From IMG/VR virus record IMGVR_UViG_3300046694_000196, positions 32,001-96,000 of that record: a DNA stretch of 64,000 nt; one strand, given 5' to 3'. Shown here in pieces: positions 5,305 through 51,920 of this stretch; the stretch's first letter is position 1, and each line of letters begins with the position of its first letter. The notes under the pieces were generated by a model. The model was not told where the DNA came from. It was given only the letters and a program-made list of their open reading frames with translations, and did no database searches. The translations under genes and the position numbers were made by a program. The DNA is from a virus.

Positions 5305-6288
5305 TTGCAATTCAACATTGAAATCGAGAAACTGAGAGAGTGCAAGCTCTTCGTGGCAGTGCCGATGTACGGCGGGATGTGCCACGGTAACTTCACTCGC
5401 TCCATCATGGACCTCACCGCGCTCTGTGCCCGCTACAGTGTCCACATGCGCACGTACTTCCTCTTCAACGAGTCCCTGATCAGCCGCGCGCGCGCGTACT
5501 GTGCCGACGAGTTCCTCCGCTCTGACTGCACCCACATGCTCTTCATCGACGCCGACATCACGTTCAACGCGAACGACGTCATCGCGATGATAGCGGTCCA
5601 GCTCATGGACCCCGAGAACAAGGACATCGTCGCGGCGGCTTACCCCAAGAAGTGCATCACCTGGGAGAAGATCAAGCTGGCAGTCGACAAGGGCTTCGCT
5701 GACGAGGACCCCAACAGGCTCGAGGACTTCGTGGGTGACTTCGTGTTCAACCCGGTGTCCGGCACTTCCATCCTGCTAAGTGAGCCCGCCGAGGTCGCCG
5801 AGGCCGGCACCGGCTTCATGCTCATCCCGCGCAACACGTTCGACCGCTTTAACGTGGCGTACCCCGAGTTCCGGTACCTGCCAGACCACGCGCGCAGCGA
5901 CAACTTCGACGGCACCCGCGAGATCACCATGTTCTTCGACTGCGTCATCGACAAGGACCGCAAGGAGTCTGAGTTCGAGGCGATGATGGACGACATCCTG
6001 GCACTAGAAGTAGGTTCTCCTGACGACGAGCTCGACGTCGAGAAACTGCAGGCCAAGGTCAAGGACATCCGTCTCCGTGAGAAGAACAGCTCGAAGAGGT
6101 ACCTGTCGGAGGACTACTACTTCTGCCAGAACGTCCGCAGGGCCGGCATGAAGGTGTGGATCTGTCCGTGGATCGAGCTGCAGCACAGCGGTTTCTACAC
6201 GTTCGGGGGCAAGCTCGCCGCGCTCGCCGCGATCGGCGCCTCCGCCACAGTCGACAAAGACGCACTAAAGAAGAGAGCCAAGGCATGA
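5305..6288 (+). CDS. GT-A-like glycosyltransferase conserved in T4-like phages
   Basis: LFVAVPMYGG, NESLISRAR, THMLFIDADI (DxD), RYLSEDYYFC; TTG start with AAGGA. Confidence 0.75.
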   Translation: MQFNIEIEKLRECKLFVAVPMYGGMCHGNFTRSIMDLTALCARYSVHMRTYFLFNESLISRARAYCADEFLRSDCTHMLFIDADITFNANDVIAMIAVQLMDPENKDIVAAAYPKKCITWEKIKLAVDKGFADEDPNRLEDFVGDFVFNPVSGTSILLSEPAEVAEAGTGFMLIPRNTFDRFNVAYPEFRYLPDHARSDNFDGTREITMFFDCVIDKDRKESEFEAMMDDILALEVGSPDDELDVEKLQAKVKDIRLREKNSSKRYLSEDYYFCQNVRRAGMKVWICPWIELQHSGFYTFGGKLAALAAIGASATVDKDALKKRAKA

Positions 6289-48569: not shown

Positions 48570-48943
48570 GTGACTACGCGAGAGACGACTCGTTCGATTG
48601 CTTCGACCTGGTCTGGGACGCGGAGTACTCCGCGTGGGACCTCGTCCACCAGTCTACGGGCCAGCACTACTTTCCCGGAGAACTGCTGTTCCTGTTCACC
48701 GACTGCGCGGACTACGACTTCCTGCGCTTCCGTAAGAATTCCGCCGACTACGCGTTCAACGAGATGGGCGGCGAGTTCTACCGTGCGTGGCTCGTCAAGA
48801 TGCACGCCGCCTACGTGCTGTGGTTCGCGGAGACCAGACGCGTGGAGTACCTCGAACAGAACCCCGGCAAGGGGAAACAGGCCGAGAGGGCCTACGCGGA
48901 AGCGATGGCCGAGGCCGAGAATTTCTACAGGAGGATGAAGTGA
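48566..48943 (+). CDS. hypothetical protein
   Basis: 125 aa. Confidence 0.7.
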   Translation: MSDYARDDSFDCFDLVWDAEYSAWDLVHQSTGQHYFPGELLFLFTDCADYDFLRFRKNSADYAFNEMGGEFYRAWLVKMHAAYVLWFAETRRVEYLEQNPGKGKQAERAYAEAMAEAENFYRRMK

Positions 48944-49374
48944 CAGAACCCAAGAGACCCGGAGGGGACGCGGTCCTCTTCATCGTCATGAGGACGGACC
49001 TGAAGTCAATGGTTCCGGGCAAGGCCATCGCGCAGGGCTCACACGCCGCCAACGCGGCCGCTAAGCACGCCGAGGCCTCCGCGCCCGAGCTCTACCGTGC
49101 GTGGTCGACGTCCACCATGCAGCACTTCGGGACGGTCCTCGTGCTCGACGGCGGCAAGAGCATCGACGCGATCGAGGACCTCGTCGCGGAGGCCTCTGCC
49201 ATGTCCGCAGTCCGCGGCCAGGAAGCGGTCACGGGCATGGTCTTCGACCCGACCTACCCCGTCCGAGACGGCGAGGCGACGCACTACGTCCCGGTCACGA
49301 CCTGTGCCTACCTCATGTGCTACAGGGACAGCGAGGCGCACAAGGTCATCAAGCAACTGAAGCTTCACCCATGA
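48940..49374 (+). CDS. peptidyl-tRNA hydrolase PTH2-like protein
   Basis: IVMRTDL..M.PGKAIAQGSHA pattern. Confidence 0.7.
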   Translation: MTEPKRPGGDAVLFIVMRTDLKSMVPGKAIAQGSHAANAAAKHAEASAPELYRAWSTSTMQHFGTVLVLDGGKSIDAIEDLVAEASAMSAVRGQEAVTGMVFDPTYPVRDGEATHYVPVTTCAYLMCYRDSEAHKVIKQLKLHP

Positions 49375-49556
49375 GCATAGTGCAGTTTCTCGACAGGGGC
49401 TGGGAGGTCTACGACGAGGGCGTCCGGGTCACAGACATGCTCTGGGAGGCCGTCTTCGAGGAGGAGTCCCCATTCGAGGTCTACAGCAAGAGCCAGTGCG
49501 AGATGCTGGTGAAGTTCGTGCAGGACAACGACATCGACTACGCGAGGGTAGCATGA
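49371..49556 (+). CDS. hypothetical protein
   Basis: 61 aa. Confidence 0.6.
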   Translation: MSIVQFLDRGWEVYDEGVRVTDMLWEAVFEEESPFEVYSKSQCEMLVKFVQDNDIDYARVA

Positions 49557-49771
49557 AGGTAACAGATGTAGTAGGGAAAGACAAGGTATGCCGGTTCTCA
49601 CACTTCGTGAACAGCGAGCTGTGGTACGAGGCCGAGAACGGTTTCCTGTTCCCCGTGACCACTTACGACGCCGGGACGGCTCGCTTCAACGCCGAAGAGA
49701 AGAGCGTCCTGCTCATGCGGTGGGTCCGACAGCACCTCAAGAAAATCGAGGAAGCCCGTGAAGAAGTTTGA
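49553..49771 (+). CDS. conserved phage hypothetical protein
   Basis: LWYEAENGFLFPV...KSVLLMRWVR. Confidence 0.75.
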   Translation: MKVTDVVGKDKVCRFSHFVNSELWYEAENGFLFPVTTYDAGTARFNAEEKSVLLMRWVRQHLKKIEEAREEV

Positions 49772-50258
49772 CATAGACGAGGTCCGCGCCTTCATCGCGA
49801 AGCAGTCGCGCTCGACCAAGATATACATAGGGTGTGACTCCTACCGCTTCAAGCGGGAGGGCGTGTGGCACGCGCGGTACACGACCGTCTGCATCGTGCA
49901 CATCAACGGCAAGAACGGTTGCGCCATCTTCGGTGACATCGACACCGAGCGTGACTATGACCAGAAGAAGAACGCACCGCGCATGAGGATGATGAACGAG
50001 GTCTACCGTTCTGTCGGCATGTACCTGAAGCTCGCAGAGGTCATCGGAGACCGCGAGATGGAGCTCCACGTCGACATCAACCCCTCGAAGCTGCACGGCT
50101 CCAACGTGGCGTACGCCGAGGCCGCCGGGTACATCCGGGGCGTCACGGGCGTCACGCCTAAGTTCAAGCCTGAAGCATTGGCGTCGTCGTTCGGCGCGGA
50201 CCACTTCCGCACCTACGGCGGCAAGAAAGAGAAGGCCAAGGAGGCCGAGTTGTCATGA
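49758..50258 (+). CDS. YkuK/DUF458 RNase H-fold protein
   Basis: IYIGCDS, RMMNEV, ELHVDIN, ADH. Confidence 0.8.
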   Translation: MKKFDIDEVRAFIAKQSRSTKIYIGCDSYRFKREGVWHARYTTVCIVHINGKNGCAIFGDIDTERDYDQKKNAPRMRMMNEVYRSVGMYLKLAEVIGDREMELHVDINPSKLHGSNVAYAEAAGYIRGVTGVTPKFKPEALASSFGADHFRTYGGKKEKAKEAELS

Positions 50259-50479: not shown

Positions 50480-50483
50480 ACGG

Positions 50484-50514
50484 TTGACAAACCGGTCGGA
50501 TCGTGGTATAAATA
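50484..50514 (+). promoter_or_regulatory. overlapping early and late promoter for the RNA cluster
   Basis: TTGACA 50484-89 and TATAAATA 50507-14. Confidence 0.8.
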
Positions 50515-50520
50515 TCACAC

Positions 50521-50837
50521 GATCAAGCGGGAAGCCGCTTGTCAACGAGAAATGACTCTCGACGCAGGTAGCCACAGGAAATATTATAGTGGTGAGGGGC
50601 GCCGGGAACGTACGCAGGGCCCGTCCTGGTACCGGAGACGTCCGGTCGCACAAACCAGGCATTTCTCGACTCTATACGCCTGCAGACCTCTCCGGACAGG
50701 AGAGTAGCTAACTCCGGGTCTAAGTGAAGCAAGAGACAACGCGTCATGTCTGGGTTCTACTCCCAGATGCTGATAACAGCGCGGCGCCATGCTGCCTTGT
50801 CTCCCTAGAACACGACGGTCTGCAGGCGTATAGAGTC
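50521..50837 (+). ncRNA. large structured non-coding RNA candidate
   Basis: 9-bp stem 50546-54/50660-68; perfect 21-bp stem 50668-88/50817-37; multiple internal hairpins. Confidence 0.6.
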
Positions 50838-50839
50838 AA

Positions 50840-50921
50840 GCACCCTTATCGTCCCCGCCTTCTAAGCGGTCGTTAACGACGTAGACGGAGTAGGCTGGTT
50901 CGAGTCCAGCAGGGTGCTCCA
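50840..50921 (+). ncRNA. atypical tRNA-Arg(UCU)-like RNA
   Basis: GCACCCT/AGGGTGC acceptor, TTCGAGT T-arm, CCA; CCGC-CTTCTAA-GCGG hairpin inside the D-stem. Confidence 0.75.
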
Positions 50922-50924
50922 CTA

Positions 50925-51030
50925 TTTCCGCTGGTGAGACTGCCGCGTACGGGCAAGTCACCGGTCTCGGGGCATAGAGGCCGGCTGCAGAGGCAGTCGC
51001 TGGTGCGAGTCCAGCCCGTTAAGGAAACCA
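50925..51030 (+). ncRNA. tRNA-like multi-hairpin RNA ending in T-arm and CCA
   Basis: TTTCC/GGAAA-CCA ends, GCTGG-TGCGAGT-CCAGC arm, three more hairpins. Confidence 0.5.
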
Positions 51031-51119
51031 TTTCTGATCGTGACGGGGAGCGCGCTAACGCCCTCGTCGCCTTTGCGCAGCAGGTCGCGGACTCCTTTAG
51101 CGGGGAGCCCTAGACCTGA

Positions 51120-51188
51120 GTCGGAATCGTCCAACTTGGATAGGACACTGCCGTCTAGGTGGAAACCAGGTTCAAATCCTGACCGACG
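51120..51188 (+). pseudogene. degenerate tRNA
   Basis: D-arm GTCC/GGAC and TTCAAAT T-loop present; 5-nt anticodon loop, weak acceptor, no CCA. Confidence 0.45.
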
Positions 51189-51201
51189 TCTGCAACAATT
51201 C

Positions 51202-51398: not shown

Positions 51399-51920
51399 AT
51401 GACCACGAACTGGAATTCACCGATCGCTGAAGTGAACCCGACCGAGGGCAGGAAAGACTTCCTCCTGAACATCGGCGACGTGGTGCTGTACAACTACCTC
51501 GGGTACAAGCGGTACGACTCGTTCGACAAGTCGCGGTCCCTCGAAGTCATCGAGGTGTCTACGGGCCCCACGGGGAACGTCATCTTCCGCGGAAAGCAAC
51601 AGAAGAACGTCCGGTACAACACGAACGGCACAGCTCCAGCCGGGTGGCTCGAGACGCCGTTCCTGTCTTCGAAGTACTTCCGAGTGGTCACTCCCGCAGT
51701 GCCCGTAGAGTCGTTGAAGGGCTCACCTCAGCCCCTCCCGGTCGACACCCTGATCGTCGACGCGACCACCCTGAAGGTGCTGAAGGCCTGCAACAACATC
51801 AACCAGAAGAGTGAAGTCGAGGCCATCCTCCGCAGGGACATGAACCAGAAGCTGTTCGTGTTCGCGCGAGTCGCAGAAGTGTCGGTCGGCGAGCTGCCCG
51901 TGAAGTGGGACTGGAAATGA
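51399..51920 (+). CDS. hypothetical protein
   Basis: GGAG RBS; 173 aa. Confidence 0.75.
   Translation: MTTNWNSPIAEVNPTEGRKDFLLNIGDVVLYNYLGYKRYDSFDKSRSLEVIEVSTGPTGNVIFRGKQQKNVRYNTNGTAPAGWLETPFLSSKYFRVVTPAVPVESLKGSPQPLPVDTLIVDATTLKVLKACNNINQKSEVEAILRRDMNQKLFVFARVAEVSVGELPVKWDWK

What the first reader, a model, noticed from the sequence alone, without database searches (positions are those of the whole stretch)
50521..50837. ~320-nt structured RNA with a perfect 21-bp closing helix at the head of the RNA cluster
Seen directly after a dual TTGACA/TATAAATA promoter: hairpin CAAGCGG/CCGCTTG; domain 1 closed by CGAGAAATG/CATTTCTCG with nested CCTGGT/ACCAGG and ACCGGA/TCCGGT; domain 2 closed by GACTCTATACGCCTGCAGACC/GGTCTGCAGGCGTATAGAGTC with CTCTCC/GGAGAG, TCTGGG/CCCAGA and GAGACAA/TTGTCTC inside. 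There is no credible ORF. It ends 2 nt before the first Arg-like RNA. A 21-bp duplex could be an RNase III substrate or a scaffold. It may be one or two novel phage ncRNAs.
Basis: seen in the sequence. Interest (0 to 1): 0.75.

Follow-up and report, generated by a model that had tools for sequence, protein, structure and literature searches.

The report
Helix-clamped leader RNA of phage tRNA operon
The 320 bases between a strong promoter and the first tRNA-like gene of this uncultured soil phage form a folded, non-coding leader RNA. Its 21-base-pair "clamp" is conserved by compensating mutations in related phages and belongs to a widespread, apparently undescribed kind of clamp-closed RNA cassette in phage tRNA gene arrays.

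Summary
The window is part of a 126-kb IMG/VR phage contig. A TTGACA-17-TATAAATA promoter is followed by a 5' hairpin, a 123-nt domain 1 and a 170-nt domain 2. Domain 2 is closed by a perfect 21-bp helix that ends 2 nt before a rearranged tRNA-Arg-like gene. There is no Rfam match, no tRNA call and no conserved ORF.

Domain 2 is not isolate-specific. Homologous clamps sit in the same slot in three related metagenomic phages: 13 of 21 shared helix columns carry compensatory double changes, and 81 of 85 pairs are Watson-Crick. In two relatives the cargo is a decayed tRNA. The nearest relative has lost the module by deletion. Domain 1 has no relatives.

In 89 related loci, 39 distinct long helices abut tRNA ends. 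Their non-canonical pairs are G.U on the tRNA-sense strand 20 times against 2 for A.C, which indicates RNA-level selection.

My best reading is a cis-acting, clamp-closed leader/spacer cassette. It is released by RNase P, may be cut by RNase III, and is perhaps stable. This is inferred, not shown. This scan has noted the same class before in at least 40 other phage genomes. I found no paper describing it.

The parts
50484..50514 (+). Promoter: -35 TTGACA, 17-nt spacer, and TATAAATA (a -10 or T4-late-type box). The predicted transcript start is near 50520.
   Evidence: The same TTGACA-17-TATAAATA arrangement heads the tRNA array in relatives L018, L020, L023 and L124.
50499..50524 (+). 7-bp inverted repeat GATCGTG/CACGATC that brackets the TATAAATA box.
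   Evidence: Seen. The equivalent repeat covaries in relatives: CTCCCTCCCC/GGGGAGGGAG in L018 and TTCCTTCCTTG/CAAGGAAGGAA in L020 and L023. Its function is unknown.
50524..50541 (+). 5'-proximal hairpin CAAGCGG-GAAG-CCGCTTG, probably a 5'-end stabiliser.
   Evidence: -13.1 kcal/mol, z = -4.2. Other TATAAATA sites in the window are also followed by a hairpin.
50546..50668 (+). Domain 1: a 123-nt module closed by a 9-bp helix (11 of 12 pairs if extended), with nested hairpins. It has no known relatives.
   Evidence: z = -2.3; 5 of 200 shuffles fold as well. No relative was found in any fetched locus.
50668..50688 (+). 5' arm of the 21-bp clamp of domain 2.
   Evidence: It is homologous to the arms in L023, L020 and L025, with compensatory changes.
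50689..50816 (+). Cargo of domain 2 (128 nt). It holds hairpin 50688-50704 and a cloverleaf-like sub-domain at 50733-50803: a 7-bp stem GAGACAA/TTGTCTC, no D arm, a 6-bp arm with the 7-nt loop TTCTACT, and two further hairpins.
   Evidence: z = -1.7 alone. The hairpin TCTGGG-TTCTACT-CCCAGA aligns with the T-arm GCAGGG-TTCGAGT-CCCTGA of L023. Rfam and ARAGORN do not call it a tRNA.
50817..50837 (+). 3' arm of the 21-bp clamp. It ends 2 nt before the next RNA gene.
   Evidence: BLAST of 50819-50921 against L023 1177-1281 gives 86.7% identity.
50840..50921 (+). Downstream rearranged tRNA-Arg(UCU)-like RNA with an encoded CCA. Its 5' end marks the predicted RNase P cut that would release the leader.
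   Evidence: The core is conserved in many phages.

Best explanation
The stretch is the untranslated, highly folded leader of the phage's tRNA/tRNA-like operon. It is made of three stem-closed modules in series: a 5' hairpin, domain 1 and domain 2.

Domain 2 is a vertically inherited "helix-clamped cassette". The sequences flanking a decayed tRNA-like body pair into a duplex of about 21 bp, and that duplex is kept by selection on the RNA.

Proposed mechanism (inferred):
1. Transcription starts near 50520.
2. Each module folds on itself, so the long untranslated leader cannot mispair with the unusual downstream tRNA-like RNA and offers no unstructured RNA for Rho or RNase E.
3. RNase P cuts at 50839/50840. 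This releases a leader of about 320 nt whose 5' end lies in a hairpin and whose 3' end lies in the 21-bp clamp with a 2-nt overhang.
4. The two-turn perfect duplex is also the right size for host RNase III, which could excise the cargo or start leader decay.

Shown here: the structure, the conserved promoter, the conserved position, helix covariation, and strand-specific G.U tolerance across the class.
Inferred: transcription, the RNase P and RNase III cuts, and the stability of the product.
For: - Structure and chance.
- Promoter conserved at the head of the array in relatives.
- Orthologous clamps in the same slot in L023 (21 bp, perfect), L020/L021 (21 bp, one U.U) and L025 (25 bp, two G.U).
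- Covariation: 13 of 21 shared columns carry compensatory double changes, and 81 of 85 cells are Watson-Crick.
- Cargo is tRNA-derived. L025 has a canonical D arm and T arm. With the ARAGORN threshold relaxed, L020 is called Ile-like and L025 Gln-like.
- Class level: in 89 loci with 870 tRNAs, 39 distinct helices of at least 14 bp abut tRNA ends. The right arm usually ends 3-7 nt before the next tRNA. The left arm often starts at the discriminator-CCA of the previous tRNA.
- Isolated non-canonical pairs in those helices are G.U on the tRNA-sense strand 20 times and A.C 2 times. This fits RNA pairing on that strand rather than a DNA-level constraint.
- No conserved ORF.
Against: - There is no expression data: no RNA run is available for this uncultured phage.
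- The window's own clamp has no G.U pair, so the strand-specific argument rests on orthologs and on the class.
- The covariation alignment of the arms was made by hand and has only four sequences.
- The nearest relative (L018, 82% identity in the neighbouring protein) lacks the module and keeps only a 45-nt leader. The module is therefore not required for expressing the downstream tRNA-like RNA.
- Domain 1 has no relatives and only moderate thermodynamic support.
- The cargo interiors are not significantly more stable than shuffles.
- No phage RNase III gene was found in the 126-kb record, so any such cut would depend on an unknown host.
Confidence: 0.5

Rival explanations
1. The released clamp-closed RNA is the functional product. 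It would be a stable trans-acting RNA, for example a tRNA mimic or decoy for host tRNA-targeting nucleases or tRNA enzymes, a Y-RNA-like partner of a Ro-type protein, or a dsRNA sponge. On this view the clamp serves to protect both ends of that RNA.
For: - The cargo is tRNA-derived, with a T-arm-like hairpin.
- Both predicted ends lie in stable helices.
- Phage T4 makes stable tRNA-like RNAs of unknown function from its tRNA cluster. T4 rnaC folds with a T arm.
- The phage invests heavily in tRNA metabolism: a CCA-adding enzyme, PTH2 and a DUF458 nuclease.
- Earlier notes from this scan link similar clamps to Ro60 genes in Felix-O1-like phages.
Against: - The cargo sequence is not conserved between orthologs. 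Only the clamp and one hairpin are.
- The cargo identity differs between relatives: Ile-like in one, Gln-like in another, unrecognisable here.
- The nearest relative has lost the module.
- The 126-kb record has no TROVE/Ro or RtcB gene.
- There is no Rfam YrlA match.
Confidence: 0.25
2. The cargo is a decaying tRNA pseudogene with no function of its own. The clamp persists only because leader-trailer pairing was part of the ancestral pre-tRNA, and it is now slowly being lost.
For: - Real tRNAs and tRNA-like RNAs sit inside the same kind of clamp in related phages: L053 (tRNA-Met), L107 and L084.
- The cargo is degenerate here.
- L018 has deleted the module.
- L124 has only an 8-bp closing helix in the same slot.
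Against: A neutral relic would not keep 21 of 21 Watson-Crick pairs while 13 helix columns changed on both strands among four lineages. The promoter-proximal position is conserved across relatives that differ by 35% in the neighbouring protein.
Confidence: 0.12
3. It is a DNA-level element rather than an RNA structure. Candidates are a MITE-like insertion with terminal inverted repeats, an invertible segment, or a cruciform or recombination site that mediates cassette shuffling.
For: - The repeat is perfect, Watson-Crick only, and flanks a short segment.
- The cargo differs between relatives while the arms are homologous.
- A promoter cassette with a near-identical -35 region sits at a different place in L018, which indicates modular shuffling in this region.
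Against: - It is single-copy in the 126-kb genome, and no target-site duplication is visible.
- No serine or tyrosine recombinase gene is present.
- Only one orientation appears in the single assembly available (contigs only, so this is weak).
- The arms covary instead of keeping a recognition sequence.
- Across the class, G.U pairs are found on the sense strand only, 20 against 2. A symmetric DNA constraint would not produce that.
Confidence: 0.06
4. It encodes a small protein, for example the 51-aa frame at 50552-50707.
For: Open frames of 40-74 aa exist on both strands, as expected at 59% GC.
Against: - No frame is conserved among the four orthologous modules.
- There is no convincing ribosome-binding site.
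- The 51-aa frame runs across the domain 1/domain 2 boundary and into the clamp.
- The small ORF that follows the matching promoter in L018 has no tblastn match here.
Confidence: 0.02

Closest known systems
Phage T4 species 1 and species 2 stable RNAs (rnaC, rnaD)
   Same: - Small non-coding RNAs encoded in and co-transcribed with a phage tRNA cluster, with function still unknown.
- T4 rnaC folds with a canonical T arm next to its 3' end, like the cargo of the L020 and L025 orthologs.
   Different: - No sequence similarity beyond the T loop.
- The T4 RNAs have no closing duplex of about 20 bp.
- The T4 RNAs lie at the 3' end of the cluster, whereas this element is the promoter-proximal leader.
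RNase III processing stems around stable RNAs (the 16S and 23S rRNA leader-trailer stems of E. coli; phage T7 R1.1-type sites; the metY-nusA leader hairpins)
   Same: A duplex of at least 20 bp is formed by sequences flanking an RNA inside a polycistronic stable-RNA transcript. The pairing is conserved through compensation. (What is known of these families is from my own knowledge, not tested here.)
   Different: - Cleavage is untested here.
- The clamped cargo is a decayed tRNA-like body, not an rRNA.
- The duplex is fully perfect, whereas T7 sites carry internal loops.
- No phage RNase III gene was found.
Bacterial and phage Y RNAs (YrlA/YrlB, Rfam RF02553)
   Same: A long stem is formed by the 5' and 3' ends, closing a tRNA-like module. 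Y RNAs occur in phages near tRNA genes (from my own knowledge and earlier scan notes).
   Different: - No Rfam match at E up to 10.
- No Ro60/TROVE or RtcB gene in the record.
- The order of the tRNA-like arms in the L020 and L025 cargo is that of a normal tRNA, not the permuted order of YrlA.
GOLLD and ROOL, large ornate RNAs found next to phage tRNA genes
   Same: Large structured non-coding RNAs that sit next to tRNA genes in phage genomes.
   Different: No Rfam match. This element is much smaller, and its interior is not conserved.
MITEs that fold into RNase III-cleaved hairpins when transcribed (Neisseria Correia elements)
   Same: Terminal inverted repeats of about 20-26 bp flank roughly 100-150 nt, and the element is co-transcribed with neighbouring genes.
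   Different: This element is single-copy, has no target-site duplication, and its arms covary between genomes rather than being one repeated sequence.

Membership tests
tRNA (Rfam RF00005 / ARAGORN) | Cloverleaf with D, anticodon and T arms that scores above the model threshold | tested here: not met
   No tRNA hit in 50510-50845 even at E up to 10. ARAGORN at default settings finds none. With the threshold relaxed, the calls in the window are inconsistent with the predicted fold, whereas the L020 and L025 cargos give Ile-like and Gln-like calls.
Any Rfam 15 family (including YrlA, tmRNA, GOLLD, ROOL, 6S, RNase P RNA, ribozymes) | Covariance-model match | tested here: not met
   no match overlaps 50521-50837 at E up to 10.
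Y RNA (YrlA-type) | A Ro60/TROVE (and often RtcB) gene in the same genome or next door | tested here: not met
   neither is present in the 126-kb record. The record is an estimated 73% complete, so absence is not proven.
RNase III processing stem | Duplex of about two helical turns (at least 20 bp) formed by distant flanks within a transcript | tested here: met
   21 Watson-Crick pairs, 50668-50688 with 50817-50837. The orthologs have 21-25 bp.
RNase III processing stem | Staggered cleavage by RNase III in vivo or in vitro | not testable with these tools
   No RNA data are available. The host is unknown.
Helix-clamped cassette of phage tRNA arrays (a working class defined by this scan, not by the literature) | Long near-perfect helix whose 3' arm ends within a few nt of the 5' end of a tRNA or tRNA-like gene, on the tRNA-sense strand | tested here: met
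   The gap to the tRNA-Arg-like RNA is 2 nt. In 39 class members the gap is mostly 3-7 nt.
Helix-clamped cassette of phage tRNA arrays | Pairing maintained by compensatory change between related phages | tested here: met
   13 compensatory columns among four orthologs.
MITE | Several copies with the same terminal repeats, plus a target-site duplication | tested here: not met
   One copy in the 126-kb genome. The exact arm is absent from IMG/VR. No duplication is visible at the flanks.
Invertible promoter/terminator segment (inverton) | A site-specific recombinase and both orientations present in the population | tested here: not met
   No resolvase or tyrosine recombinase. A single orientation appears in the one assembly, but these are contigs only, so rare variants would be missed.
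T4 rnaC/rnaD | Sequence or structural homology to the T4 RNAs | tested here: not met
   BLAST finds only matches of 8-13 nt, essentially the T loop. The folds differ.

The most novel reading that the evidence does not exclude
Helix-clamped cassettes would be a widespread, undescribed class of phage RNA genes. The roughly 20-bp clamp would be a dedicated maturation device that does two things. It ties up the CCA end of the preceding tRNA and the leader of the following one, so that tRNA release is timed by a double-strand-specific nuclease. It also yields end-protected tRNA-mimic RNAs that act as decoys against host tRNA-targeting defences. The 320-nt leader here would then be a two-cassette version sitting at the head of the operon.
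Probability: 0.2. Interest if true: 0.8.

Novelty: new variant of a known kind. Interest (0 to 1): 0.5.

Why it matters
Phage tRNA arrays are usually annotated as bare lists of tRNAs. This element, its orthologs and the 39 similar helices in related phages show that the "spacers" and leaders are themselves under selection as RNA structures.

The rules are regular: the clamp ends a few nucleotides before the next tRNA, and it often begins at the CCA of the previous one. If the clamps are processing devices, they reveal how phages mature long tRNA transcripts, and possibly how they time tRNA release. If the released RNAs are functional tRNA mimics, they bear on the 50-year-old question of what T4-type stable RNAs do, and on the phage-host conflict over tRNAs.

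For this particular locus the gain is more modest. It adds a well-supported instance in a new, high-GC soil phage clade, with clear covariation and a natural deletion variant.

Tried and rejected
- Rfam at gathering thresholds and at E up to 10, on 64 kb, 1.2 kb and 336 nt: nothing in the element.
- ARAGORN at default settings: nothing.
- blastn of the region against 50,697 phage records: only the tRNAs and the tRNA-Arg-like core match.
- Exact 21-mer arm in IMG/VR: absent.
- Downstream ORF 51399-51920 as an anchor: only one distant, uninformative relative.
- DNA polymerase as an anchor in IMG/VR: relatives of only 39% identity.
- tRNA-Arg-like core as an anchor in IMG/VR and in metagenome contigs: 17 loci, none with the element.
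- Degenerate two-arm pattern in IMG/VR: four chance matches inside coding regions.
- Sequencing runs: one DNA run, probably the source sample. No RNA holder is listed.
- Laying that run on the region: a single bridging contig and no alternative joint. These are contigs only, so this says little about inversion.
- The genome search on the relatives' records: those records are not held.
- Domain 1 and the cargo against all fetched loci with nhmmer and blastn: no relatives.
- Conserved-ORF test, and tblastn with the small ORF of L018: negative.
- TROVE, RtcB, RNase III, resolvase and integrase genes in the 126-kb genome: none.
- Similarity to T4 rnaC/rnaD: none.
- Literature searches: no paper describing clamp-closed cassettes in phage tRNA arrays, and nothing on the function of DUF458.
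- Ideas considered and dropped:
  - tmRNA or two-piece tmRNA: no match.
  - Riboswitch or T-box: wrong context and no match.
  - Intrinsic terminator: 128-nt loop and no U tract.
  - Internal promoter in the 3' arm: poor hexamers.
  - Amber-suppressor tRNA, from the CUA in the loop TTCTACT: position 37 is a pyrimidine, there is no D arm or T loop, and no model supports it.

Full report
**Where the window comes from.** The window is bases 32001-96000 of a 126,343-bp IMG/VR virus record, estimated 73% complete, with about 59% GC. It encodes a DNA polymerase, a DnaB helicase, ribonucleotide reductase, NAMPT, a tRNA nucleotidyltransferase and a tail fibre. TATAAATA, the T4 late-promoter motif, occurs six times against 0.1 expected. 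The only public run holding the sequence is a rhizosphere metagenome, probably its source.

- The promoter TTGACA-17-TATAAAT at 50484-50513 is unique in the window.
- The 317-nt stretch folds at -141.4 kcal/mol with z = -6.5.
- The 21-bp perfect repeat (50668-50688 with 50817-50837; 24 bp with one mismatch) is the longest inverted repeat in 64 kb. About 1.6e-5 such repeats are expected by chance.
- The thermodynamic signal comes mainly from that clamp and from the 5' hairpin (z = -4.2). Domain 1 alone gives z = -2.3, and the cargo of domain 2 alone gives z = -1.7.
- No Rfam family matches at E up to 10, and ARAGORN calls nothing there.

**Finding relatives.**
- Direct DNA searches failed, and so did the downstream ORF.
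- The upstream gene 49758-50258 is a DUF458/YkuK RNase-H-like protein. It has close homologs, and their contigs are syntenic: NadM-Nudix, NAMPT, PTH2, DUF458, then a tRNA array.
- In L023 (80% protein identity), the same promoter is followed by a perfect 21-bp clamp around 117 nt.
- In L020/L021 (77%), it is followed by a 21-bp clamp with one U.U mismatch around 103 nt. In both L023 and L020/L021 the clamp ends 4-8 nt before the tRNA-Arg-like gene.
- L025 (65%) carries a 25-bp clamp with two G.U pairs directly after a tRNA-Glu.
- The arms are visibly homologous: GACTCTATACGCC in the window, AACTTCTTACGCC in L023 and AACTTATTATGCC in L025. BLAST also joins 50819-50921 to L023 at 86.7% identity.
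- In a hand-made column alignment of the arms, 13 of 21 shared columns carry changes on both strands that keep the pair. Of 85 pair cells, 81 are Watson-Crick, 2 are G.U and 2 are mismatches.

**What the clamp holds.**
- L025's cargo has a canonical U8-A9, D arm and T arm. With the ARAGORN threshold relaxed, it is called Gln-like and L020's cargo Ile-like.
- In the window and in L023 the cargo is more degenerate. The hairpin TCTGGG-TTCTACT-CCCAGA aligns with L023's T arm GCAGGG-TTCGAGT-CCCTGA.
- Bases 50733-50803 fold into a 7-bp-stem cloverleaf-like body without a D arm.
- Otherwise the interiors are not alignable, and they share no ORF.

**Loss and variation in the same slot.**
- The closest relative, L018 (82%), has the same promoter and the same tRNA-Arg-like gene, but only about 45 nt between them.
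- That short leader aligns to the first bases of L023's left arm and to the sequence just inside it, so it looks like a deletion derivative.
- L124 (59%) has a leader of about 115 nt with only an 8-bp closing helix.
- The slot between promoter and first tRNA-like gene is thus always filled by folded RNA, but its length ranges from 45 to 320 nt.
- Domain 1 is found only in the window.

**A wider class.**
- Using an alignment of DUF458 proteins, I fetched 80 more viral loci.
- Across 89 loci (689 kb, 870 tRNAs), long inverted repeats concentrate in the tRNA arrays.
- Some enclose genuine tRNA bodies: L053 (tRNA-Met, 17 bp) and L107. L084 encloses the rearranged tRNA-Arg-like RNA in a 20-bp stem. 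Others enclose 40-190 nt of non-tRNA sequence between two tRNAs.
- Thirty-nine distinct helices of at least 14 bp abut a tRNA end. The 3' arm typically ends 3-7 nt before the next tRNA. In 11 cases the 5' arm starts exactly at the discriminator-CCA of the previous tRNA, as NACCAUAU... paired with ...AUAUGGUN.
- In these helices, isolated non-canonical pairs are G.U on the tRNA-sense strand 20 times, A.C (which would be G.U on the other strand) twice, and other mismatches 6 times.
- A constraint on the DNA duplex or on both strands would be symmetric. This asymmetry indicates selection on the sense-strand RNA.
- Earlier notes of this scan describe the same kind of clamp in at least 40 other phage genomes: Kuttervirus, Felix-O1-like, Acinetobacter phages and others. 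This finding is therefore a further instance of that class, in a new high-GC soil clade.
- I found no paper that describes the class.

**Mechanism.**
- What is shown: a conserved promoter, a set of self-contained folded modules, a clamp under RNA-level selection, and a fixed 2-nt distance to the next RNA gene.
- What I infer: the modules keep a long untranslated leader from interfering with the folding of the unusual downstream RNA and from exposing single-stranded RNA.
- RNase P cutting at 50839/50840 would release a leader whose 5' end sits in a hairpin and whose 3' end sits in the clamp with a 2-nt overhang. That would make it stable.
- A perfect two-turn duplex is also a plausible host RNase III substrate, by analogy with rRNA processing stems.
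- The phage record has no RNase III gene of its own.

**Rivals.**
- A trans-acting tRNA mimic, decoy or Y-like RNA is attractive because of the tRNA-derived cargo and the T4 precedent. It is weakened by the non-conserved cargo, the loss in L018, and the absence of Ro and RtcB genes.
- A neutral tRNA relic is contradicted by the covariation.
- A MITE, inverton or cruciform is disfavoured by the single copy, the absence of recombinases, the covarying arms and the G.U asymmetry.
- A small protein is disfavoured by the lack of any conserved frame.

**Verdict.** This is a real, conserved, non-coding structured RNA element. It is best filed as a helix-clamped leader cassette of a phage tRNA operon. 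That makes it a new variant of known themes (processing stems, T4-type stable RNAs), not a wholly new kind of RNA. Its function is still inferred.

Noticed in passing
window 50840-50921; L004 1487-1582; L005-L012; L030-L038; L084 2051-2154: The rearranged tRNA-Arg(UCU)-like RNA has no D arm, an anticodon hairpin nested in a 4-bp stem, and a D-loop-like GTAATTGGAGTA segment after it. Its core is almost invariant (CCCGCCTTCTAAGCGGTCGTTAA) in very different phages, including the E. coli phages Bas93 and Bas94, where it is unannotated. The enclosing 4-bp stem covaries (CGTC/GACG against CTTC/GAAG). In Bas93 and in L084 it sits inside an 18-20-bp clamp instead of a 7-bp acceptor stem.
   Followed up: partly
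window 50499-50524; L018 5770-5816; L020 2240-2290; L023 995-1045: An inverted repeat brackets the TATAAATA box of the array promoter and covaries between phages: GATCGTG/CACGATC, CTCCCTCCCC/GGGGAGGGAG and TTCCTTCCTTG/CAAGGAAGGAA. It could be a hairpin in read-through RNA or a phage-specific operator. I have no explanation for it.
   Followed up: no
L018 6192-6474 compared with window 50483-50502: The closest relative carries a second promoter whose -35 region is nearly identical to the window's (TTGACAAACCGGTCGG). That promoter drives a 74-aa ORF inserted between tRNA-Leu and tRNA-Lys, which are adjacent in the window. This points to promoter-led cassettes being shuffled within the array.
   Followed up: partly
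L088 1275-1430, L055 3469-3551, L107 3385-3591, L079 1995-2184 and others: In many related phages the 5' arm of an inter-tRNA clamp begins with the discriminator and CCA of the preceding tRNA (NACCAUAU...), and its partner (...AUAUGGUN) lies just before the next tRNA. The CCA end is therefore predicted to be base-paired until the spacer is removed.
   Followed up: partly
window 48787-50258 and syntenic loci L018, L020, L024, L025, L028, L124: A conserved gene block precedes the tRNA array: NadM-Nudix, NAMPT, PTH2 peptidyl-tRNA hydrolase, two or three small ORFs, and a DUF458/YkuK RNase-H-like protein. Some relatives add YqeY and Thg1-like genes. The DUF458 nuclease has no known function and is a candidate enzyme for processing the array.
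   Followed up: no
L025 7799-7881: A perfect 23-bp hairpin with a 37-nt loop ends exactly at the first base of tRNA-Met and overlaps the end of a small, very basic ORF.
   Followed up: no
window 50925-51200: Two further RNA-like elements with T arms lie between the tRNA-Arg-like RNA and tRNA-Leu, and ARAGORN calls neither. One ends in GGAAACCA. In L018 the equivalent place holds a normal tRNA-Glu (6011-6082).
   Followed up: no
L119 1409-1547 (phage T4 rnaC): T4 species 1 RNA folds (z = -4.6) with a canonical T arm, CCGGGTTCGAATCCCGG, just before its 3' end. In other words, it is itself a tRNA-derived RNA with long hairpins in place of the other arms.
   Followed up: partly
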